From a virus: a stretch of DNA of 38,395 bases. The position numbers were made by a program, and so were the translations under genes. Under the pieces are notes generated by a model. The model was not told where the DNA came from, made no database searches, and saw only the letters and a program-made list of their open reading frames with translations. This document shows positions 3,710 through 38,395 of the stretch, in pieces (within the stretch, counting starts at the first letter, position 1; every line of letters starts with the position of its first letter). The DNA is taken from the UHGV virus genome UHGV-0217314; one strand, written 5' to 3'.

Positions 3710-4549
3710 CTACACCGCCTTTAACCGCTTATCTGATGTGGTTTCAAACTTAAAAGCAAATCCTTGCGAATTTTTGAAAATACGTGAAACAATCCTTTCC
3801 CCATAAGCGTTTTTCATTTCTTTTCCTGTTAAATTCGTTGTTAAAATTATCGCCTGATTTTGTCTTGCTTCAAGAATTGAATTAAGTGTGTCATTGTTGA
3901 AATTTGTACTGTTTGTGTACGTTGATCCACCCAACTCTGCGCCTAAATCATCAATGACAACTAGATCTGCAGTCTTAATGTCTTTCATTAACGAACCTTG
4001 AATTTCTTTTCTCAATTGCTCGTCGTTAAAAGAGAACTTGATTTGCTCTAATAATTCCCGATAGCTAATAAACAAACATTTTTTGTCGTAGTCTGATTGT
4101 TTGATTATTTCCCAAGTAGCTGCCATAGCCAGATGACTTTTACCGCTTCCGGATTTTCCATTTAAAGCTAAATGCTTAGGTTCTCCATTTAGAACTGCTT
4201 TAACAAAATTTTTAGCAATTGCTGCAGCTGATTCAGTCTCTGCATCAATGATTTTGTAATTATCGAAAGAACAATCAAATAAGCTCTTATCTGTGATTAC
4301 CGAACCATATTTAAAGAAATTAAGTGTTTTACTTTTCAAACTATCGCTATAGATTTTCTCAGTCTGTAAATCTTCTTTACGCTTAAGATCGTAATAGCCA
4401 CAAGCCATACACGTTGGCGCACATCGCTCTGATCCGTCTTTGTTTTTTGCGCGATAAGCATATAGGTTGCCCCCGCACTCTGGACACTTACCACGTACTA
4501 CTAAAACTTTTGGGATCAACAACTCCATGCCTTTTGCTAGACTTTCCAT
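3710..4549 (-). CDS. DnaC/IstB-like helicase-loader ATPase with an N-terminal zinc ribbon
   Basis: Walker A GKSGSGKSHLA. Walker B VVIDDLGAE. N-terminal CPECGG...CMACGYY. Confidence 0.7.
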   Translation of the reverse strand: MESLAKGMELLIPKVLVVRGKCPECGGNLYAYRAKNKDGSERCAPTCMACGYYDLKRKEDLQTEKIYSDSLKSKTLNFFKYGSVITDKSLFDCSFDNYKIIDAETESAAAIAKNFVKAVLNGEPKHLALNGKSGSGKSHLAMAATWEIIKQSDYDKKCLFISYRELLEQIKFSFNDEQLRKEIQGSLMKDIKTADLVVIDDLGAELGGSTYTNSTNFNNDTLNSILEARQNQAIILTTNLTGKEMKNAYGERIVSRIFKNSQGFAFKFETTSDKRLKAV

Positions 4550-6215: not shown

Positions 6216-7197
6216 CTTCCTCTCTGCCGAAATTTGGAATCAGCCCCAGGTCATCTTGGATTGATTCGACATCGTTTGCCACTTGTTCGATTTCATCAAG
6301 GTCAAGCGGTTCTGGTTCGATTGCTTGTTCTTTCGGTTTTATCAAATCCTCGATCGGAGTCGGTTCTTCGATCGGTTTTTCTTCGATGGGTTCGGCTTGC
6401 TTAATGCCTAACTTTTGCTGTAACTTGTTTTCGATCGCTTGTACCTTCACAGGTTCGGCTTGTTTGATTTCGTGATCATAGTCGCCTTCTGTTGTTCGAT
6501 TGAAAGCATCGGAAAATAGTTCTGCATCGTCACTTGTATTGATGAACTGCTTCGCTGCTCGATTGATTACAGTTCTTTTCGCCATTTCTTCCGGAAAATC
6601 GATTTGCACTGATTTAACTTTCGCCTTCGACCACGATTTATCGATTTGTTTTTTCGTCATAATCGTGTAAACCTTCGTGCCGTCTGACTTTGTAATCGTT
6701 GCAAAAGCCCCGATGATTTCGTTATCCATGTTTTCAAAGCTTGGTTCAAACTCTGTCACTACTGTTTCGTTATCTACTGAACCAATTCTAAAAACATCGC
6801 CTTTTCTAATCACTTCCGCTTTTACGTTTTCGATTTCATCAAGTCTTTTCAATGCTACTTGTGTTCCAAAGTAAGAGCGTGACATTTGAAGCTTTTGACC
6901 ATAAGCAATGAAATAGCATTGGTTCTTTCCGGGATTCAATCCCTGTTGAATCATGTCAAGCAATGAATTGGCAATACTGGCTTTCCCTACTGCTGTATTT
7001 CCGTATTTTTCCATATACAAACCGCCACCCTCGTTGCGGCTTAACTGAACTTCGTTAATTTTGAAGAATGCCTGTTTCAAAGCGTTCGCAACATTGTAAT
7101 TGCTCGGCAGCTGAACCCCTTGTGCTTCTAATTCGGTTACTTTACCCAAAACAACATCGGTAATATCTTTTTGTAGAACTGCCATTTCGTTAGCCAT
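6169..7197 (-). CDS. RecT-like single-strand annealing recombinase with an acidic repetitive C-terminus
   Basis: The core ANSLLDMIQQGLNPGKNQCYFIAYGQKLQMSRSYFGTQVALKRL fits the RecT family pattern. The C-terminal PIEE repeats are encoded by tandem DNA repeats at about 6290-6410. Confidence 0.5.
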   Translation of the reverse strand: MANEMAVLQKDITDVVLGKVTELEAQGVQLPSNYNVANALKQAFFKINEVQLSRNEGGGLYMEKYGNTAVGKASIANSLLDMIQQGLNPGKNQCYFIAYGQKLQMSRSYFGTQVALKRLDEIENVKAEVIRKGDVFRIGSVDNETVVTEFEPSFENMDNEIIGAFATITKSDGTKVYTIMTKKQIDKSWSKAKVKSVQIDFPEEMAKRTVINRAAKQFINTSDDAELFSDAFNRTTEGDYDHEIKQAEPVKVQAIENKLQQKLGIKQAEPIEEKPIEEPTPIEDLIKPKEQAIEPEPLDLDEIEQVANDVESIQDDLGLIPNFGREEGVDDEGILPEEDYPF

Positions 7198-9719: not shown

Positions 9720-10568
9720 ATGGCAAGAAAACCACTTTCTCAAGAAGATAAAGAAATCCGACGAATCATCGCAGAAAACTTGAAAAGAATCACTCATGGC
9801 TATACTCGCGCCCAGGTATCTGAGAAAACTGGAATTCCAACCTCAACACTTTCTGGATATTTTATAGAAAAATCAACAATAAACAAAGAAAATGCCGAAG
9901 CAATAGCTGCAGCTTTCAATGTGGATAAAGCAGATATTGATCCGAGGTATTCGCGAAATTACGATTTACACGACATGAAGAAAGAAGTTTTTGACGAGTT
10001 ACTTAATTCGAAAAGTAGTTCTCAAGAGGAACAATTCGAAAAATTTCTTGAGCTTAGCAATAAAGCTAATAAAGCGGGCATGAATTTAAGTCGTATGAAT
10101 ACTGACAGAGGAAACAATATAACAGCTTTTTATCACGATACACATGACTATAATTTTTTCGATACTAGCATTGCAGCAGGCCTTCCAACATCTATTGAAG
10201 CCTTTGAGGAAGATCACATTGAGCAAATAGCTATTCCTGATTACGCTATGGGGAAATATTCTGGAATGACAGATATATTTTTTACAAAAACAAATGGAGA
10301 TTCAATGAACAATGTGATTCCTAACGGATCACTTATTGCAGTAAAACGCATAGATGACTTTTCAGAGTTGAAGAACGAGGATATTGTTGTTTTTAGTAAT
10401 GATAATGAGTTTTCAGTAAAGAGATTCATTAACGATAAAGAAAATCAGAGAATTATTTTTAGACCTGATTCCAGTAATATCGCCTTCACAGATATAGTGG
10501 TAAGTTACGAGGATGCAAAAGAATTAAGAATATATGGAAAAGTTGTGGTTTATATTGTACAGCTATAA
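9720..10568 (+). CDS. CI-like repressor: N-terminal XRE HTH plus C-terminal S24 (LexA-like) peptidase
   Basis: HTH segment RAQVSEKTGIPTSTLSGYF. Ser in GDSM and Lys in VKR form the S24 Ser/Lys dyad. Strong RBS AAGGAGG. Confidence 0.8.
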   Translation: MARKPLSQEDKEIRRIIAENLKRITHGYTRAQVSEKTGIPTSTLSGYFIEKSTINKENAEAIAAAFNVDKADIDPRYSRNYDLHDMKKEVFDELLNSKSSSQEEQFEKFLELSNKANKAGMNLSRMNTDRGNNITAFYHDTHDYNFFDTSIAAGLPTSIEAFEEDHIEQIAIPDYAMGKYSGMTDIFFTKTNGDSMNNVIPNGSLIAVKRIDDFSELKNEDIVVFSNDNEFSVKRFINDKENQRIIFRPDSSNIAFTDIVVSYEDAKELRIYGKVVVYIVQL

Positions 10569-10599
10569 AAAAATGCACCCCACCGTCGAAAGTAAGAGT

Positions 10600-10636
10600 G
10601 CATTAGCTAAAAAGGCATAGCTTTTTTCATTATGCC
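10600..10636 (+). terminator. Putative intrinsic terminator after the cI-like gene
   Basis: Hairpins AGCTA-loop-TAGCT and GGCATA...TATGCC with a TTTTTT run. Confidence 0.3.
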
Positions 10637-10667
10637 TATTTTATCATAAATAGGAGTTGGTTTCACT

Positions 10668-11816
10668 ATGTGGATGGAAGAAACATCTAAGGGGAAGTTT
10701 AAGTTTATCGAAAGATACAAAGACCCTTATACTGAAGAACTAAAAAAAGTAAGTATTACATTAACTAGCAAATCAAATGTAGCCAAAAAGCAAGCACAAA
10801 AAGAACTAAACGAAAAAATCAACAGGATACTAACTGCGAAAAAAAAATCAGACCACACATTGCAAGAGCTTCTGGATGAATGGTGGGATTTTCATTCTCA
10901 AACTGTACGATCAAATACTATTCGTAATTATACAAACATTATGAAGGCTTTTAAGAAGAATGATAATCTTAATTTGAAAGCAAAAATAAGAAATACAGAT
11001 AGTCAATTTTTTCAAAAGTTTATTAACTCACTGACCTTTTCACACGTTCAAAAATCAAAATACAAATCAGTCTTAAATATGGCTTTCGATTACGCTGTAA
11101 ATATGCAGTATGTAAAAGATAATCCATTGAGGAAGGTAATTATACCTAAACCACCTAAAACGCTTGAAACATTCTCTAGAGTCCAAGATTTGTACCTTGA
11201 AAAAGAAGAAGTTAATCGATTATTAACAGCATACTATTCGTCTCATCAATCTAAAAGAATGGGAAATCTAGTAGAGTTTATGTACTTAACAGGTGTTAGA
11301 ATTGGTGAAGCAATAAGTTTACAAGTAAAGAATTATAGAAAAGAAGAGAAGCTCCTAGATATTCACGGCACACTAGATTACTCAAAAGGCTATAAGAATG
11401 CAACAAAAGAATTGCCAAAAACTGATGCATCTTATAGAACAATAGGAATATCTAATCGAGTTATTGAAATTTTGGATGAAGTTATTTTAGAAAATAAATT
11501 GAAGTATGATCATTATGATAACGACAGCTACATTTTTATAGGCAAAACGGGATTACCAATCCAAGTGAATACATTCAATGCCGCTCTAGATTATAATAAT
11601 GAGAAGCTTGGGGATAAAAAAATAAACAAAAAGCTGCATTCTCACATTTTTAGGCATAGCCACATTTCTTTATTATCTGAATTGAACATACCCATAAAAG
11701 CTATAATGCAAAGAGTAGGCCATGACGATGAAAAAACTACATTGAAAATTTATACTCATGTAACTGAAAAACAAAAAACCGATATTGTAGAAAAATTAAA
11801 TAACCTAGGATTCTAA
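10668..11816 (+). CDS. int: Tyrosine recombinase (phage integrase)
   Basis: C-terminal catalytic region HSHIFRHSHISLL...LGHDDEKTTLKIYTHV, matching the R...HxxR...Y pattern. N-terminal SAM-like domain. RBS AGGAG. Confidence 0.85.
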   Translation: MWMEETSKGKFKFIERYKDPYTEELKKVSITLTSKSNVAKKQAQKELNEKINRILTAKKKSDHTLQELLDEWWDFHSQTVRSNTIRNYTNIMKAFKKNDNLNLKAKIRNTDSQFFQKFINSLTFSHVQKSKYKSVLNMAFDYAVNMQYVKDNPLRKVIIPKPPKTLETFSRVQDLYLEKEEVNRLLTAYYSSHQSKRMGNLVEFMYLTGVRIGEAISLQVKNYRKEEKLLDIHGTLDYSKGYKNATKELPKTDASYRTIGISNRVIEILDEVILENKLKYDHYDNDSYIFIGKTGLPIQVNTFNAALDYNNEKLGDKKINKKLHSHIFRHSHISLLSELNIPIKAIMQRVGHDDEKTTLKIYTHVTEKQKTDIVEKLNNLGF

Positions 11817-11848
11817 TCACTAGGTTATGGTTTAAATTATTAAATTTT

Positions 11849-12085
11849 CAATTCTGCCCCTTTTTTGCCCCTTGACCTGTTATCTATTCAAAATAGGTCT
11901 TTCAAAAGGCTATCTAATAGGGATTCAATCAGACACATGGAGACTCCTGCTTAAAATACTTAACCAATGTATATGGACTATCTATTACTATCACAGCAAT
12001 AATTTTCGCTGTTTCTAGATAAAATATAATTGCACTAATTATCATGAATTATCATTTTCTTACCCCTTTTTTGCCCCCAATATTA
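11849..12085. other. Candidate attP region flanked by direct repeats TTCTnCCCCTTTTTTGCCCC
   Basis: Repeats at 11851-11876 and 12057-12082. The non-coding region lies immediately downstream of int and contains the short inverted repeat CTATTcaaaATAG. Confidence 0.3.
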
Positions 12086-12129
12086 TTGTTCTAAAAAATA
12101 ACATCTTCGGTTAATAAACGATTTTATTG

Positions 12130-12175
12130 TTGAAATGTTTTTTATTCTTACAATATTTTCTGATACAATAAAAGA
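12130..12175 (+). promoter_or_regulatory. Candidate promoter for the moron operon
   Basis: TTGAAA at 12130-12135. TACAAT at 12149-12154. An extended -10-like TGaTACAAT lies at 12161-12169, upstream of RBS GAGGAG. Confidence 0.3.
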
Positions 12176-12196
12176 AAAAAGTGAGGAGTTTTTAAA

Positions 12197-12943
12197 ATGG
12201 GACTGTTTGATAAGGTAAAAGACAAAGCTACAAAAGCCATGTCAGAACAAATAGATAATTTGAAATCCAAAGATATTGCTGGTAAAAACATTGGTAATAT
12301 GATGAAGCCAATTGAAAATGCAGCTAGTACCGCTCTTTCTAATCATCAAGAAAACAAGAAAGAACAAAAGATTGTCTTGCCTGTGAAAAAACCATTTATG
12401 AAACAATTAGATTCGATTACTTTAAGACGAGATATTAATGATTATTTTTACGTTTCCAAAAAATATGATCCAAATGCAACTAAATATCAATTTGAGCGTT
12501 TTGAGTGGAATGGGAGCACTATAACCCAAGAAACAACAACTACAGGTAATATTAAAACAAAAGGTAGGACAGGACAAACTATTGCTGGTACGGCACTATT
12601 AGGACCAGCAGGAGCAATTATTGGTAGTGCTGGAAAACGAAAAAGTAAGGTTGATACTAAATCAACCACAACTATAAAAGAAGTTGGCAGTGAAGGGAAA
12701 ATATTTTTACGAAATTTAGAAAATGGCTCTATAGAAGAAATAAAAGTTTTTCTTGAGTCGGCACAAGCGAGTAACCTAGAACGCTTTATTGCAAATGTTG
12801 ATTATACAGAAGATACTACTGTTGAAAAATCAAATGAACATTCTTCTACACAACGATTAAAAGAATTAAAAGAATTACTTGATTTGGGGATTATTACACA
12901 AGAAGAATTTGAGTTGAAGAAAAAAGAGATCTTAGAACTATAA
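12197..12943 (+). CDS. SHOCT-domain protein with a glycine-zipper segment (248 aa); moron
   Basis: C-terminal LKELKELLDLGIITQEEFELKKKEIL is a SHOCT-type motif. GTALLGPAGAIIGSAG is a glycine zipper. N-terminal MGLFDKVKDKA. The gene has its own promoter and RBS. Confidence 0.55.
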   Translation: MGLFDKVKDKATKAMSEQIDNLKSKDIAGKNIGNMMKPIENAASTALSNHQENKKEQKIVLPVKKPFMKQLDSITLRRDINDYFYVSKKYDPNATKYQFERFEWNGSTITQETTTTGNIKTKGRTGQTIAGTALLGPAGAIIGSAGKRKSKVDTKSTTTIKEVGSEGKIFLRNLENGSIEEIKVFLESAQASNLERFIANVDYTEDTTVEKSNEHSSTQRLKELKELLDLGIITQEEFELKKKEILEL

Positions 12944-36221: not shown

Positions 36222-36728
36222 TCAAAACAAGCTCAACTGATCTTGATCCGCTGAATAGTAGTCCATTTCTTCTTGTTTCTTCAAGCGTTCTTCTCGCCGT
36301 GCCTCATACTCATCCACGAATGATAATGTCTTGCGAATCTCTGTATGCCGCTTTCTGATATAGGATACGCTGTAACCTGTCTCATCTGCTATATCATAAA
36401 CATCCATGTCATCAATATACTTTAATTTAACAATTTGATTGTCTGCACCGCTGAACGAATCAATCAATTCCATCAGTTCAACTTTTTCTTTTTCAAGCAG
36501 CTCTAATTCATTCTCTATGATTCTGATGTTTTCTTCCAACGATGATGATCTTGAATTTTTTTCAAGGCGCACGTTTGCTAAATCACCGTTGACCCATCGA
36601 TCTAATTCCAACCTACTCTTGTTAAGATTCCATTTCATGAAGAGTATTTGTTCTTCTAAGTCTTGGTAGTTTTTAAGCCAATGAAATCTCACAAACGCCA
36701 CCCCTTTATGGTAAAATAGTCTTGTCAC
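36222..36728 (-). CDS. ArpU/RinA-like late transcription activator (sigma region-4-like HTH)
   Basis: IVKLKYIDDMDVYDIADETGYSVSYIRKRHTEIRKTL is a region-4-type HTH. Sits upstream of the packaging genes. An alternative start is the GTG at 36692 with RBS AAAGGGG. Confidence 0.55.
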   Translation of the reverse strand: MTRLFYHKGVAFVRFHWLKNYQDLEEQILFMKWNLNKSRLELDRWVNGDLANVRLEKNSRSSSLEENIRIIENELELLEKEKVELMELIDSFSGADNQIVKLKYIDDMDVYDIADETGYSVSYIRKRHTEIRKTLSFVDEYEARREERLKKQEEMDYYSADQDQLSLF

Positions 36729-37209: not shown

Positions 37210-37394
37210 CCCCCACTTTCTATAGCTTTACTGACAATCGGATCTCGATATAACATTTTGTACTTGAGTTTTTCATGCTGCAGTTGTTCTTGTAACTGCT
37301 CAATTTGTTCCTGTTGGTCCACTATTGTATAGGACATGATAATAACTATAGTCCCCAATAAAAGTACGGCAATACCAATAATCCTTCTTCTCAT
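37206..37394 (-). CDS. Small membrane/coiled-coil protein (62 aa)
   Basis: RBS GAGAGGTG. N-terminal TM IIGIAVLLLGTIVIIM. Confidence 0.45.
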   Translation of the reverse strand: MRRRIIGIAVLLLGTIVIIMSYTIVDQQEQIEQLQEQLQHEKLKYKMLYRDPIVSKAIESGG

Positions 37395-37445
37395 TCAAAC
37401 ACCTCTCGTTATTTAATATATTTTCCAAACATTCCCTGACACTCT

Positions 37446-37473
37446 TATATAAGCTACTTTCGCCTATTTTTGA
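37446..37473 (-). promoter_or_regulatory. Candidate minus-strand promoter (TTCAAA-16-TATATA) for the small-gene/late-activator operon
   Basis: Read on the minus strand: -35 TTCAAA (plus 37468-37473) and -10 TATATA (plus 37446-37451). Confidence 0.3.
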
Positions 37474-37537
37474 ACCACTATGATCCTCTATGATATTCTA
37501 ACGGCTTCTAATCCTTTGTCATCTTTAAATCAAGTTC

Positions 37538-37723
37538 TTGCCAAAAATGGGGATTGCTGTTATATTATTGGTGAGGATATAGATCTTACTCCTCGCCAAG
37601 CCTGAATCTGGATCATTCGTGATCGAAGTGGGAATTGAGTGCACCCACGTTCCCCCGCGGGCGGGTTAGCCTAGCGTTTGTCTGCATGGGACGGTATCCA
37701 TGCTTTGCACTCTTATTTTTTTT
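37538..37723 (+). ncRNA. Candidate structured leader / small RNA. A promoter (TTGCCA-17-TATATT) is followed by a GC-rich multi-hairpin RNA of about 150 nt that ends in a hairpin with a U-rich stretch downstream.
   Basis: -35 at 37538-37543 and -10 at 37561-37566. Hairpins GGTGAGGA...TCCTCGCC, GTGGG...CCCAC, the palindrome CCCGCGGG, and GCATGG-gacggtat-CCATGC. A T-run lies about 12 nt downstream of the last hairpin. Confidence 0.35.
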
Positions 37724-37743
37724 GTACATTTTTGGAGGTTAGA

Positions 37744-38295
37744 ATGAATACAGATTTCTCTCTCACTTATAATCAGTATCTTTCTAACTTTGATGGAAAG
37801 ATGGCTATCCTAACAACAAAGTTTGAACCTTTAGATAGGTTTTATATTAAGTTCGATATAAAGCAATTACCTCACTTATTGGGTCTTCAATACATCTACA
37901 CCGATCCGCCCCAAACATTATGCGAAATGCTCTGCAACAAGGACATAACTTACGAAAAACTGCAGCGTCATCAAAATTTCGTGAAAATTAAAGATCGTAT
38001 CACATTGTTTCCGTATATACTAAATATTTTTTTAGAAGACTATAATGCCTCGGTGATATATGTCTCTGAGCAAGATCGTCATGGATCTTCAATGAAGTTA
38101 GATATCGTGTTTGCCCATCCACATAAAAACAAATATCTGAACTTAGGACTGAGAGAAACGAGAGAATCAATTTATTCACCCGTAACTTTCTATGTCTTTA
38201 AGAAAGGGCGGCATCCAGTTATGCCTTCTTCAAAAAGGGCAAAGGTTGAAACAATAGAATTTATCAACCCAACTAGACAAATACAACTCTTTTAA
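37744..38295 (+). CDS. Hypothetical plus-strand moron protein (184 aa). Start refined from the ORF-track start at 37678.
   Basis: RBS GGAGG lies 6 nt upstream of the ATG at 37744. It is on the opposite strand to the surrounding genes and has its own terminator. Confidence 0.55.
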   Translation: MNTDFSLTYNQYLSNFDGKMAILTTKFEPLDRFYIKFDIKQLPHLLGLQYIYTDPPQTLCEMLCNKDITYEKLQRHQNFVKIKDRITLFPYILNIFLEDYNASVIYVSEQDRHGSSMKLDIVFAHPHKNKYLNLGLRETRESIYSPVTFYVFKKGRHPVMPSSKRAKVETIEFINPTRQIQLF

Positions 38296-38305
38296 GTTTT
38301 AGTAG

Positions 38306-38331
38306 ACCATCGTAAGCGATGGTTTTTTTGA
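38306..38331 (+). terminator. Intrinsic terminator after the 37744..38295 gene
   Basis: ACCATCG-taagc-CGATGGT followed by TTTTTTT. Confidence 0.5.
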
Positions 38332-38395
38332 TGTCTGAATTCCGTTATCGCTGACGATTGCGGAATTACTGCACACTTTTTACTAAAGACTTAAA

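What the first reader, a model, noticed from the sequence alone, without database searches (positions are those of the whole stretch)
37538..38331. Second moron locus: a GC-rich structured RNA leader ending in a hairpin with a U-rich stretch, immediately upstream of a plus-strand 184-aa gene
Among the minus-strand genes, a plus-strand unit has a near-consensus promoter (TTGCCA-17-TATATT, 37538-37566). It is followed by about 150 nt of unusually GC-rich sequence (CCCCCGCGGGCGGG) that can fold into three or four hairpins. The last hairpin (GCATGG...CCATGC) is followed about 12 nt later by a run of T's. An RBS GGAGG and a 184-aa ORF (37744-38295) come next, ending at a strong terminator. A promoter, structured leader with a terminator-like hairpin and a gene is the layout of a riboswitch/attenuator-controlled gene. 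It is also the layout of a type III toxin-antitoxin locus (RNA antitoxin, terminator, toxin), although no tandem RNA repeats typical of ToxI were seen. No known riboswitch consensus was recognised, and the protein has no recognisable motif.
Basis: partly seen in the sequence, partly recalled or inferred. Interest (0 to 1): 0.7.

Follow-up and report, generated by a model that had tools for sequence, protein, structure and literature searches.

The report
Pseudoknotted phage RNA paired with PBECR4 RNase
The plus-strand unit is a real two-part prophage cassette, a roughly 150-nt pseudoknotted small RNA (a distant relative of Listeria rli62 and Staphylococcus SprY) followed by a terminator and a predicted PBECR4 ribonuclease gene, and it most likely works as an RNA-antitoxin/protein-toxin anti-phage module.

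Summary
One claim is wrong: the 183-aa protein does have a recognisable domain, PBECR4, a predicted BECR-fold RNase.

The GC-rich leader is a conserved structured RNA. It has two variable 5' hairpins and a core H-type pseudoknot (P0/P1) that encloses hairpins P2 and P3. The 3' strand of P1 abuts the U-run. In the core, 15 of 24 pairs covary and 97.6% of cells are paired.

Rfam does not recognise the window copy. A model built from its relatives does hit Listeria phage A500 rli62. The same topology occurs in S. aureus phi12 SprY and in the Streptococcus Bacilli-1 region.

Every solo PBECR4 gene whose upstream region could be read had this RNA directly upstream, except one 29%-identity outlier. 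These genes came from Enterococcus, Tetragenococcus, Carnobacterium, Lacticaseibacillus, Listeria, Staphylococcus and Streptococcus. The RNA, in contrast, often occurs without PBECR4, and a 72-nt piece of it sits inside a non-coding region of lytic-type E. faecium phages.

Best reading (about 0.48): a type III-like toxin-antitoxin or abortive-infection module. No function was tested. It is a new variant of a known kind.

The parts
37538..37566 (+). Sigma-70-type promoter: -35 TTGCCA (37538-37543), 17-nt spacer with an extended -10 TG (37558-37559), -10 TATATT (37561-37566). The predicted transcription start is about 37570-37573.
   Evidence: Promoter scan, (10 of 12 matches, TG present). An equivalent TGnTATATT box sits upstream of every Enterococcus-clade relative (alignment A1).
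37570..37723 (+). Predicted small RNA of about 150 nt, running from the transcription start to the end of the U-run. It is a distant homologue of rli62 and SprY.
   Evidence: The covariance model R1 scores 124 bits here, and this is the only copy in the window. The S. aureus homologue SprY is Northern-verified as a stable sRNA of about 125 nt with its own promoter (PMC8501977).
37570..37597 (+). 5'-terminal hairpin HP1 (GGUGAGGA / UCCUCGCC). It is variable in sequence between relatives, but a hairpin is always present.
   Evidence: fold_alignment pairs show compensatory changes. The sequence was read.
37611..37624 (+). Hairpin HP2 (GAUCA-UUCG-UGAUC). It is variable in sequence and conserved as a hairpin.
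   Evidence: fold_alignment: 2-3 sequences have changes on both sides at the inner pairs.
37628..37648 (+). Pseudoknot helix P0: GUGGG (37628-37632) pairs with CCCAC (37644-37648). Its loop holds the 5' strand of P1.
   Evidence: P0 was not part of the model, yet it covaries: GUGGG/CCCAC, GUGAG/CUCAC, GUGGC/GCCAC, GUGAC/GUCAC, UAUACAA/UUGUAUA, CAUAUAAU/AUUAUAUG.
37637..37712 (+). Closing helix P1: GAGUGCA (37637-37643) pairs with UGCACUC (37706-37712). It encloses P2 and P3 and directly precedes the U-run.
   Evidence: Six of seven pairs show compensatory changes and 100% of cells are paired. The topology is conserved in 10 of 10 clades.
37657..37675 (+). Hairpin P2: GCGGGC / GCCU-A-GC with bulged A37673 and loop GGGUUA (37663-37668). 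The loop is invariant in the Enterococcus-type clade.
   Evidence: helix 3: 99.1% paired, 3 pairs with compensatory changes. The Carnobacterium (L084) and Staphylococcus (L104) copies confirm the outer GC/GC register.
37684..37703 (+). Hairpin P3: GCAUGG / CCAUGC with loop GACGGUAU.
   Evidence: helix 4: 4 of 6 pairs with compensatory changes.
37713..37723 (+). U-run UUAUUUUUUUU immediately 3' of P1. It is a terminator-like element expected to end most transcripts before the gene.
   Evidence: Sequence read. The run is conserved in the Enterococcus, Tetragenococcus, Carnobacterium and Streptococcus copies, absent in L021, L035 and L054, and replaced by a separate terminator hairpin in Staphylococcus. 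The simple terminator scan does not call it because the enclosing stem is long-range.
37734..37738 (+). Ribosome-binding site GGAGG, 5 nt upstream of the ATG.
   Evidence: Sequence read. The scan lists no + strand promoter between 37566 and the ATG, so the gene should depend on read-through from the RNA promoter.
37744..38295 (+). Gene for a 183-aa solo PBECR4-domain protein, a predicted metal-independent BECR-fold endoribonuclease and the presumed toxin or effector.
38304..38331 (+). Intrinsic terminator of the cassette: a 9-bp stem followed by a T-run.
   Evidence: Terminator scan.

Best explanation
The unit is a two-component, type III-like toxin-antitoxin / abortive-infection cassette carried as a prophage moron.

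Proposed mechanism:
1. One constitutive promoter makes an abundant, stable, pseudoknotted RNA of about 150 nt. The stability is suggested by the 5' stem-loop, the compact core and the 3' helix plus U-run.
2. Most transcripts end at the P1/U-run.
3. A minority read through and are translated into the PBECR4 RNase.
4. The RNA binds the RNase and keeps it inactive.
5. When an infecting phage shuts off host transcription or degrades the RNA, the RNase is freed. It then cleaves cellular or phage RNA and aborts the infection.
6. Copies of the RNA without the gene, in other temperate phages and embedded in a non-coding region of lytic-type E. faecium phages, would act as antitoxin-only immunity or decoys.

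What is shown: the anatomy, the RNA structure, the linkage pattern and the identity of the protein domain.

What is inferred: toxicity of PBECR4, RNA-protein binding, the trigger, and the decoy role.
For: 1. The RNA is real and structured. All four core helices covary, including a pseudoknot helix that was not in the model.

2. The RNA and gene form one unit.
- DNA-pattern searches for the RNA returned 42 loci: 25 and 27 viral (25 shared, so 27 distinct), 5 genome and 10 metagenome.
- 37 of these 42 are followed by a PBECR4 ORF.
- One locus, and one further copy, are cut off by their record or stored stretch. The three copies that lack the ORF all lie in the phage non-coding region.
- The cassette sits at different places: after the lysin next to the tRNA attachment site, between the early and late modules on the opposite strand, and in a chromosomal islet next to AbiH.
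- No conserved protein neighbour was found.

3. The linkage is asymmetric.
- PBECR4 homologues down to about 27% identity have the RNA directly upstream: Carnobacterium and Lacticaseibacillus-type loci, Listeria phages in 9 of 9 records by coordinates, Staphylococcus and Streptococcus in 3 of 3 read.
- The RNA occurs without PBECR4 in most of 121 Staphylococcus phage records and in 13 of 22 Listeria records.
- A toxin found only with its partner, and a partner often found alone, is the pattern expected of a toxin and its antitoxin.

4. PBECR4 is always coupled by terminator-then-RBS, with no room for a promoter of its own. The unrelated cargo in phi12 has its own promoter-like site.

5. The orphan SprY core in phi12 is identical, from AGCCCGG to CAUCACUC, to the PBECR4-linked core of the commonest PBECR4-linked Staphylococcus type (L105).

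6. Phages of the lytic E. faecium siphophage type carry a 72-nt piece of the core, 97% identical to a prophage clade, inside a transcribed non-coding region. This parallels PhiTE pseudo-ToxI (PMC3475682).

7. The catalytic-type residues His44 and Thr148 are invariant, as expected for active PBECR RNases (PMC5512222).

8. A direct functional precedent exists with the same layout in a prophage: RCd22/AbiF of C. difficile (PMC12373285).
Against: - Nothing functional was tested: not toxicity, not binding, not a defence phenotype.
- The RNA core is much better conserved than the protein (69-92% against 35-79% identity). This is unusual for type III antitoxins and could mean that the RNA contacts a conserved cellular partner.
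- There are no tandem repeats.
- In Staphylococcus the RNA mostly stands alone or precedes unrelated cargo. SprY also has a different published role, as an RNAIII sponge.
- PADLOC has no model for the protein.
- The lytic-phage capture rests on two distinct metagenomic sequences.
- One 29%-identity homologue (L089) has a different or unrecognised upstream RNA.
Confidence: 0.48

Rival explanations
1. The RNA is a cis-acting leader or attenuator. It is a regulatory 5' leader whose P1/U-run terminates transcription unless a signal (a small ligand, a protein, or PBECR4 itself) changes the fold. Its job is only to set when PBECR4, or another moron, is expressed.
For: - The layout is promoter - structured RNA - U-run - RBS - gene.
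- Junction and loop nucleotides are strongly conserved, as in riboswitch aptamers.
- Rfam files rli62 as cis-regulatory.
- S629/SprY was first annotated as a 5' UTR.
- The RNA also precedes other cargo genes in Staphylococcus.
Against: - No mutually exclusive alternative pairing was found. P0 and P1 share no nucleotides and both covary, which indicates one pseudoknotted fold.
- The U-run is absent in the L021, L035 and L054 clade.
- The P2 loop changes from 6 to 9 nt, and CCCC changes to GCCU, in step with protein divergence. This is unlike a ligand pocket.
- The non-PBECR4 cargo in phi12 has its own promoter-like site after the RNA terminator.
- SprY accumulates as a free, stable sRNA.
- Orphan copies have no downstream gene, for example in phage ROSA.
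Confidence: 0.2
2. The RNA is an RNA partner or substrate of the RNase rather than its inhibitor. PBECR4 and the RNA form a working ribonucleoprotein. The RNA could act as scaffold, specificity factor or sensor, or PBECR4 could process it. The pair acts together on phage or host RNA.
For: - The gene is strictly linked to the RNA across Bacilli.
- The RNA is more conserved than the protein.
- The invariant single-stranded stretches (AAGUG, CACG, CCCC, GGGUUA, AGCGUU) look like recognition surfaces.
- The 3' strand of HP1 often reads like the 16S rRNA 3' tail, which hints at contact with the ribosome or with Shine-Dalgarno sequences.
Against: - The 5' variable region is held in hairpins, so it is not a free guide.
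- Orphan RNAs are common and work without PBECR4, as SprY does.
- A lytic phage would gain nothing by copying an activator of a host defence.
Confidence: 0.14
3. The RNA is an independent trans-acting phage sRNA that regulates host transcripts, as SprY sponges RNAIII. PBECR4 is just one of several morons that land in the same hot spot.
For: - SprY has a published base-pairing target.
- The RNA sits in the classical moron position between lysin and integrase, with varied neighbours, in Staphylococcus and Listeria phages.
Against: - In the Enterococcus-type clade the RNA and PBECR4 move together to different genome positions and orientations.
- PBECR4 was never found without the RNA in the groups read, apart from the unresolved L089 outlier.
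- There is no promoter between the RNA and PBECR4.
- RNAIII is specific to Staphylococcus, so sponging it cannot be the function of the whole family.
Confidence: 0.1

Closest known systems
RCd22 / AbiF of the C. difficile phi027 prophage (type III-like; PMC12373285)
   Same: It is a prophage moron with a SigA-type promoter, a structured ncRNA of about 100-130 nt, a Rho-independent terminator, an RBS and a toxic RNA-targeting protein. Short transcripts dominate and read-through gives the toxin mRNA. The RNA neutralises the protein in cis and in trans.
   Different: The toxin there is an Abi_2/HEPN-like protein, not BECR. The RNA carries two abiF motifs (RF03085), not a P0/P1 pseudoknot, and Rfam finds no abiF motif here. 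Nothing has been tested for the present system.
Classical type III toxin-antitoxin systems ToxIN, CptIN and TenpIN
   Same: The RNA gene lies upstream of an endoRNase gene, under one promoter with an internal terminator. The RNA is a pseudoknot, the systems are phage-defence modules on mobile elements, and phages can escape with RNA mimics (PMC3475682).
   Different: There are no tandem repeats here. The toxin is PBECR4/BECR rather than a ToxN/Kid-like fold. The RNA unit is about 100-150 nt rather than 34-45 nt.
Listeria rli62 (Rfam RF01486)
   Same: It has the same topology and the same position: after the lysin and directly upstream of a PBECR4 gene (A500 gp26; Lmo2277-type proteins). The Enterococcus-derived model R1 hits A500 rli62 at E 1.9e-5 and PSA at E 0.009.
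   Different: The Rfam model does not detect the window RNA at all. The Rfam model stops inside P3 and annotates neither P1 nor the pseudoknot. The function of rli62 is unknown.
S. aureus SprY (S629) of phage phi12 (PMC8501977)
   Same: It has the same pseudoknot topology (P0 UAUAUAG/CUAUAUA, P1 GAGUGA/UCACUC, L3 of 57 nt), its own promoter, a terminator and the same prophage-end location. This gives experimental proof that a family member is a stable free sRNA.
   Different: In phi12 there is no PBECR4 downstream. The published function is sponging of RNAIII through the 5' hairpin. No direct sequence match to the window was found, and R1 scores only about 11 bits.
Bacilli-1 RNA motif (Rfam RF02931)
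   Same: In Streptococcus prophages it lies upstream of PBECR4 and covers HP2, P0 (with the 5' strand of P1 in its loop) and P2 of the same architecture.
   Different: It is a 65-nt partial motif. The Streptococcus RNA has an insertion of about 50 nt. There is no hit in the window.
PBECR domains of polyvalent phage proteins (Iyer et al. 2017, PMC5512222)
   Same: It is the same Pfam family, with the predicted His and Thr/Ser active-site residues conserved.
   Different: Here the domain is a solo protein expressed from a lysogen-type moron with an RNA partner. It is not a virion-packaged polyvalent protein. The papers found in the searches describe no RNA partner.

Membership tests
Pfam PF18813 PBECR4 | The profile score is above the curated cut-off. 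| tested here: met
   43.2 bits against a cut-off of 27, E 7.3e-11, residues 18-154. All 36 homologues found carry PF18813, apart from one fragment.
Pfam PF18813 PBECR4 | [quoted passage not shown] | tested here: met
   His44 (QLPHLLGL, helix 39-45) and Thr148 (PVTF, strand 143-153) are invariant or nearly so in 35 sequences.
[quoted passage not shown] | Structural similarity to solved BECR RNases. | tested here: inconclusive
Type III toxin-antitoxin (ToxIN / CptIN / TenpIN) | An RNA gene directly upstream of the toxin gene, with one promoter and a terminator between them. | tested here: met
   Promoter at 37538-37566, P1/U-run at 37706-37723, RBS and ATG at 37734 and 37744, and no internal promoter.
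Type III toxin-antitoxin (ToxIN / CptIN / TenpIN) | The antitoxin is a tandem array of 34-45-nt repeats. | tested here: not met
   Tandem Repeats Finder finds no repeat in 37560-37730. Relatives also have a single unit.
Type III toxin-antitoxin (ToxIN / CptIN / TenpIN) | A toxin of the ToxN/AbiQ family. | tested here: not met
   Pfam gives PBECR4 only. PADLOC, which holds Abi and TA models, gives no hit.
Type III toxin-antitoxin (ToxIN / CptIN / TenpIN) | The RNA folds as a pseudoknot. | tested here: met
   P0 and P1 both covary and the H-type topology is conserved in 10 clades.
Type III toxin-antitoxin (functional definition) | The protein is toxic and is neutralised by direct binding of the RNA. 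| not testable with these tools
   This needs expression, rescue and binding experiments. Only indirect support exists, from the asymmetric linkage.
Rfam RF01486 rli62 | The covariance-model score is at or above the gathering score of 83 bits. | tested here: not met
   There is no hit at E<=10 on the 191-nt leader. Staphylococcus copies score 29-49 bits. Listeria A500 and PSA score 142 and 100 bits.
rli62 / SprY / Bacilli-1 wider family (proposed here) | Shared architecture: P0 5' strand, 2-5 nt, P1 5' strand, 0-1 nt, P0 3' strand, then a segment of about 56-60 nt holding P2 (bulged A) and P3, then the P1 3' strand. | tested here: met
   The regular-expression and complementarity check succeeded in all 10 clade representatives. 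R1 hits A500 rli62 at 30.6 bits, E 1.9e-5, and Carnobacterium L084 at 65 bits.
Riboswitch / transcription attenuator | Mutually exclusive terminator and antiterminator structures, and a terminator conserved with the aptamer. | tested here: not met
   P0 and P1 use different nucleotides and both covary. The U-run is missing in L021, L035 and L054. No alternative pairing was found by strand folding or fold_alignment.
Riboswitch / transcription attenuator | Ligand-dependent change of structure. | not testable with these tools
   This needs in-line probing or a transcription-termination assay.
abiF motif RNA (Rfam RF03085, RCd22-type) | A match to the abiF covariance model. | tested here: not met
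   No Rfam hit of any family in 37300-38395 at E<=10.

The most novel reading that the evidence does not exclude
rli62, SprY, Bacilli-1 and this Enterococcus RNA would be one ancient family of pseudoknotted RNA antitoxins for solo PBECR4 RNases in phages of Bacilli. The many orphan copies, including SprY and the piece captured by lytic-type E. faecium phages, would be antitoxin-only immunity or decoys in phage-against-phage conflict. SprY's effect on RNAIII would then be a secondary, species-specific role.
Probability: 0.33. Interest if true: 0.85.

Novelty: new variant of a known kind. Interest (0 to 1): 0.72.

Why it matters
If the reading is right, four things follow.
- PBECR4, until now only a predicted RNase domain, gets a first functional context, and a BECR-fold toxin is added to the RNA-antitoxin (type III-like) class.
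- Three separately catalogued RNAs of unknown or species-specific function would be joined under one structure and one partner gene: Listeria rli62, S. aureus SprY/S629 and the Bacilli-1 motif.
- The RNA's presence at the lysin-integrase end of more than 140 sequenced Staphylococcus and Listeria phages would be explained.
- A natural example would be suggested of lytic enterococcal phages copying a defence RNA, which matters for phage therapy against E. faecium and E. faecalis.

The predictions can be tested directly with simple toxicity, rescue and plaque assays.

Tried and rejected
- Rfam, on the window region at E<=10 and on the leader alone, gave nothing, so this is not a catalogued riboswitch, ribozyme, tRNA-like element or abiF motif.
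- ARAGORN found no tRNA or tmRNA.
- The minimum free energy z-score is uninformative (-0.21).
- blastn of the locus against 50,697 phage records found no match. Relatives had to be reached through protein searches, degenerate DNA patterns and a covariance model.
- PADLOC and NCBIfam gave no useful hit.
- The PDB sequence profile search gave nothing, and structural searches gave only weak BECR and RelE-like hits. The afdb50 library was unavailable.
- A conserved protein antitoxin or immunity gene next to PBECR4 was rejected, because downstream neighbours differ between loci.
- The longer 205-aa ORF from TTG 37678 was rejected. It overlaps the conserved RNA, and N-terminally extended gene calls in relatives (P0020, P0031) translate the RNA core.
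- The outer extension of P2 proposed by RNAalifold (CCCC with GUUUG) is not supported. The Carnobacterium and Staphylococcus copies support the GC/GC register with a bulged A instead.
- For L089 (29% identity) no convincing homologous RNA was found.
- The bioRxiv paper on BECR classification could not be read, and the SprY supplement is not held.
Full report
**1. Observation.**
- The promoter scan finds TTGCCA-17-TATATT at 37538-37566. It matches 10 of 12 positions and has an extended -10 TG.
- GC content rises to 58% at 37600-37699, against about 33% around it.
- The GCATGG/CCATGC hairpin lies at 37684-37703, and the T-run at 37713-37723.
- GGAGG lies at 37734-37738, the ATG ORF at 37744-38295 and a 9-bp terminator at 38304-38325.
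- There are no tandem repeats, no tRNA and no Rfam match even at E<=10.

The corrections are these. The protein has 183 residues. It is not motif-free: it matches Pfam PBECR4 (PF18813) with 43.2 bits against a cut-off of 27. The predicted folding energy of the leader is ordinary (z = -0.21), so energy alone says nothing about whether the structure is real.

**2. Context.**
The window is an Enterococcus prophage.
- The terminase, head, tail and lysis genes lie on the minus strand.
- A sigma-70 region 4 / DUF1492 (ArpU-type) late regulator lies at 36222-36728.
- A cI-like repressor and an integrase lie at 9720-11816.
- The identical PBECR4 protein occurs in many Enterococcus assemblies.

The plus-strand unit lies between the early genes and the late regulator, in the opposite orientation.

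**3. The leader is a conserved structured RNA.**
Every homologue of the protein that was fetched has a gene-free gap of 250-600 nt upstream. Aligning these gaps showed a core of about 100 nt that is far better conserved than the protein. RNA core identity to the window is 69-92%, where protein identity is 35-79%.

The core has four helices:
- P0 (37628-37632 with 37644-37648).
- P1 (37637-37643 with 37706-37712).
- P2 (37657-37662 with 37669-37675, bulged A37673, loop GGGUUA).
- P3 (37684-37689 with 37698-37703).

The 5' strand of P1 lies in the loop of P0 and abuts the 3' strand of P0. The core is therefore an H-type pseudoknot whose third loop carries P2 and P3.

The covariation counts are as follows.
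- On a plain MAFFT alignment, 93.5% of cells pair and 10 pairs show compensatory changes.
- On the alignment to covariance model R1, 97.6% of cells pair and 15 of 24 pairs show compensatory changes. None of 500 shuffles did as well, and slid controls gave 29-56% paired.
- P0 was not part of the model and still covaries.

Two 5' hairpins (37570-37597 and 37611-37624) vary in sequence but are kept as hairpins.

**4. The RNA and PBECR4 are one unit.**
DNA-pattern searches for the RNA, which are independent of the protein, returned 42 loci.
- The two viral scans gave 25 and 27 loci, of which 25 are shared, so 27 are distinct. The genome scan gave 5 loci and the metagenome scan gave 10.
- 37 of the 42 loci are followed by a PBECR4 ORF.
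- L053 ends at the end of its 448-nt record.
- L092 has only 179 nt stored after the match.
- L049 and L093 carry the same copy without the ORF. L092, L049 and L093 all lie in the phage non-coding region described in section 8.

The cassette occupies different places:
- After the lysin and next to the tRNA attachment site (L009-L025).
- Between the early and late modules (the window and L001-L008).
- Beside a cro/cI-type gene (L026).
- In a chromosomal islet next to AbiH (L086-L088).

No protein-coding neighbour is conserved. No promoter-like site lies between the U-run and the ATG.

**5. The family is much wider than Enterococcus.**
- More distant PBECR4 homologues carry recognisable copies of the RNA. 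These are L082 and L083 at 35% identity, L086 and Carnobacterium mobile L084 at 42%, and the Lacticaseibacillus-type loci L021, L035 and L054 at 39-42%.
- A Staphylococcus chromogenes prophage-like plasmid has a PBECR4 gene (28% identity over the first half of the protein). Its upstream RNA has the same topology but entirely different P0 and P1 sequences.
- A pattern taken from that clade found 55 true loci in viral contigs. blastn found the clade in 121 Staphylococcus phage records, including phi12, 47, 53, 80, ROSA, phiNM1, phiNM4 and TEM123.
- Rfam rli62 (RF01486) matches the Staphylococcus copies below threshold, at 29-49 bits. It matches Listeria phages A500 and PSA above threshold, at 142 and 100 bits.
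- Model R1, which contains no Listeria sequence, hits A500 rli62 at the same coordinates with 30.6 bits and E 1.9e-5, and PSA with E 0.009.
- A500 gp26, directly downstream, is a PBECR4 homologue (30% identity, E 9e-19).
- In phi12 the RNA lies after SprX2 and upstream of the truncated 60-aa ORF. This is the position published for SprY/S629, an RNA of about 125 nt with its own promoter, a Northern signal and a 23-min half-life (PMC8501977).
- In Streptococcus prophages PBECR4 lies between the lysin or integrase and paratox. The 5' half of its upstream RNA is the Rfam Bacilli-1 motif.
- A scripted check found the same order of strands in all ten clade representatives: P0 5', 2-5 nt, P1 5', 0-1 nt, P0 3', 56-60 nt (110 nt in Streptococcus), P1 3'. 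All helices were complementary.

**6. The linkage is asymmetric.**
Every solo PBECR4 gene whose upstream region could be read had the RNA directly upstream, apart from the outlier described below.
- The Enterococcus-type loci, including the Tetragenococcus, Carnobacterium and Lacticaseibacillus-type copies.
- Nine of nine Listeria phage records, by coordinates.
- The Staphylococcus records that could be cross-checked. 12 records hold the gene, and 13 hold the full RNA-plus-terminator type.
- Three of three Streptococcus records that were read.

The exception is L089 (29% identity). Its upstream region has a promoter, about 130 nt and a terminator, but the fold was not recognised.

The converse does not hold.
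- Only 27 of the 55 Staphylococcus viral-contig copies are followed by PBECR4.
- The other copies precede unrelated proteins or nothing. Phage ROSA, for example, has lysin, RNA and then integrase.
- 13 of 22 Listeria records have the RNA without the gene.

Where PBECR4 is present, it follows the terminator and RBS with no room for a promoter. The unrelated cargo in phi12 has a promoter-like site of its own.

The phi12 SprY core is identical, from AGCCCGG to CAUCACUC, to the PBECR4-linked core of the commonest PBECR4-linked Staphylococcus type (L105). The two differ only by compensatory changes in P0.

**7. The protein.**
- An alignment of 35 homologues shows invariant QLPHLLGL (His44), R85, D120 and PVTF (Thr148), and a conserved SKR motif. 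This matches the His-plus-Thr/Ser active site predicted for PBECR domains (PMC5512222).
- The AlphaFold2 model is confident, with pLDDT 89.
- The RNase assignment therefore rests on the Pfam family and its published analysis.
- The papers found describe no RNA partner and no experiment on PBECR4.

**8. A captured copy in lytic-type phages.**
- Three metagenomic or viral contigs carry a 72-nt piece of the RNA: L049 and L093, which share one sequence, and the variant L092.
- The piece runs from the 3' half of P0 to the 3' strand of P1 and is 97% identical to the L029/L051 clade.
- It sits inside an ORF-free region of 550-800 nt between terS (or a methyltransferase) and terL.
- That region has its own promoter-like site and terminator. 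It occurs without the insert in 24 named Enterococcus phage records, mostly E. faecium phages such as BUCT630, 9184, IME-EFm1, IME-EFm5, dArtagnan and Aramis. It has no Rfam match.
- The insertion follows the native sequence CAAAGCAGUUAG(U/C)CAC.
- It survives in two different genome arrangements, which argues against an assembly artefact.

**9. Mechanism.**
The best-supported reading is a type III-like toxin-antitoxin or abortive-infection cassette. An abundant, stable pseudoknotted RNA restrains a read-through-expressed RNase. Infection would upset that balance.

Shown:
- The anatomy of the cassette.
- The RNA structure.
- The co-mobility of RNA and gene.
- The asymmetric linkage.
- The conserved catalytic-type residues.
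- The stand-alone stability of a homologue.

Inferred:
- Toxicity of PBECR4.
- RNA-protein binding.
- The trigger.
- The decoy role of orphan copies.

The closest functional precedent is RCd22/AbiF in a C. difficile prophage, which has the same layout. The phage-capture observation parallels PhiTE pseudo-ToxI.

Points against this reading:
- The RNA is much better conserved than the protein.
- Orphan copies dominate in Staphylococcus.
- SprY has a different published role.
- There are no repeats.
- No functional data exist.

Rival readings are a cis-acting attenuator or riboswitch, an RNA cofactor or substrate of the RNase, and an unrelated sRNA that merely shares a hot spot. They are listed in the Rival explanations section with the results that would refute each.

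**10. Novelty.**
The window RNA is not in Rfam 15. Relatives are catalogued piecemeal (rli62, SprY/S629, Bacilli-1). The entries and papers consulted give neither the pseudoknotted closing helix nor the link to PBECR4. The system works like known RNA-antitoxin modules but fails two defining features of the classical type III families, namely the repeats and the ToxN-like fold. I therefore rate it a new variant of a known kind. The literature check was limited to the held library.

Noticed in passing
L102 1050-1680 (phage BUCT630), L103 900-1545 (phage 9184), L093 1230-2300, L092 about 6240-6737: Lytic-type Enterococcus siphophages (24 phage records, mostly E. faecium phages) have an ORF-free region of 550-800 nt between terS and terL, with its own promoter-like site and terminator. 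It holds modular hairpins with the conserved loop AGUUGGAAACCUUAG, a repeated unit of about 125 nt, and a terminal hairpin with loop UUAACGUAGGGC. It has no Rfam match. It looks like an undescribed large phage ncRNA or an RNA array.
   Followed up: partly
L049 283-350 (- strand), L093 1935-2031, L092 6508-6604: A 72-nt fragment of the PBECR4-associated RNA, lacking the 5' strands of P0 and P1, is inserted in that lytic-phage non-coding region. It may be an RNA decoy or pseudo-antitoxin. It rests on only two distinct sequences, all from metagenomes.
   Followed up: partly
L035 about 3925-3945, L021 about 3865-3885, L082 2303-2312, L169 about 525-540; weaker in window 37588-37597: The 3' strand of the 5' hairpin plus the following linker often reads (A)UCACCUCCUUUCUA(A). 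From my own knowledge this is identical to the 3' tail (anti-Shine-Dalgarno region) of Firmicute 16S rRNA. It recurs in separate clades (Lacticaseibacillus-type, Streptococcus suis phage). It could be chance arising from a purine/pyrimidine hairpin, or a hint at a ribosome or SD-related target.
   Followed up: no
window 37678-38295; proteins P0020, P0027, P0031: Gene callers sometimes extend the PBECR4 ORF upstream through the RNA. Examples are the 205-aa TTG ORF in the window and the 211-245-aa calls in relatives. These translate the conserved RNA core and hide the non-coding element.
   Followed up: yes
L086-L088 1536-2756: In one clade the RNA-PBECR4 cassette lies immediately downstream of an AbiH-family gene and a 728-aa protein, next to rhamnose-biosynthesis genes. 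This is a defence-islet context outside a prophage.
   Followed up: no
L166 1750-1931 (phi12), compared with L113 and L119: The 60-aa ORF SAOUHSC_A01455 downstream of SprY appears to be the start of a protein of about 280-295 aa that is cut off at the end of the phi12 genome map. The full-length protein is present in related phages (phage 47 ORF014 type) and has an N-terminal hydrophobic segment.
   Followed up: partly
L163 2537-2588 (Listeria phage PSA); L162 3216-3299: In PSA the rli62-type RNA lies between the ArpU-like activator gp53 and gp54. It is followed by an mcrA RNA motif (RF03010, 72.9 bits). A500 has rli34 nearby. Several catalogued phage RNA motifs cluster in these intergenic regions.
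   Followed up: no
L041 1-42: The IMG/VR contig IMGVR_UViG_3300045988_138840 starts with CACTGCATATCGTCGGCAGCGTCAGATGTGTATAAGAGACAG. From my own knowledge this contains the Nextera transposase adapter, so it is untrimmed adapter at a contig end. It replaces the 5' part of the RNA there.
   Followed up: no
window 37495-37522 (- strand): A promoter-like site ATGACA-16-TAGAAT (10 of 12 matches) points away from the RNA promoter, towards the minus-strand small genes at 37394 and below. The 140-nt spacer would then hold divergent promoters.
   Followed up: no
window 9720-12943: A cI-like repressor (HTH plus S24 peptidase, 9720-10568) and an integrase (10668-11816) lie on the plus strand next to the lysis end of the late genes. 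The arrangement fits a circularly permuted complete prophage or two adjacent elements.
   Followed up: no
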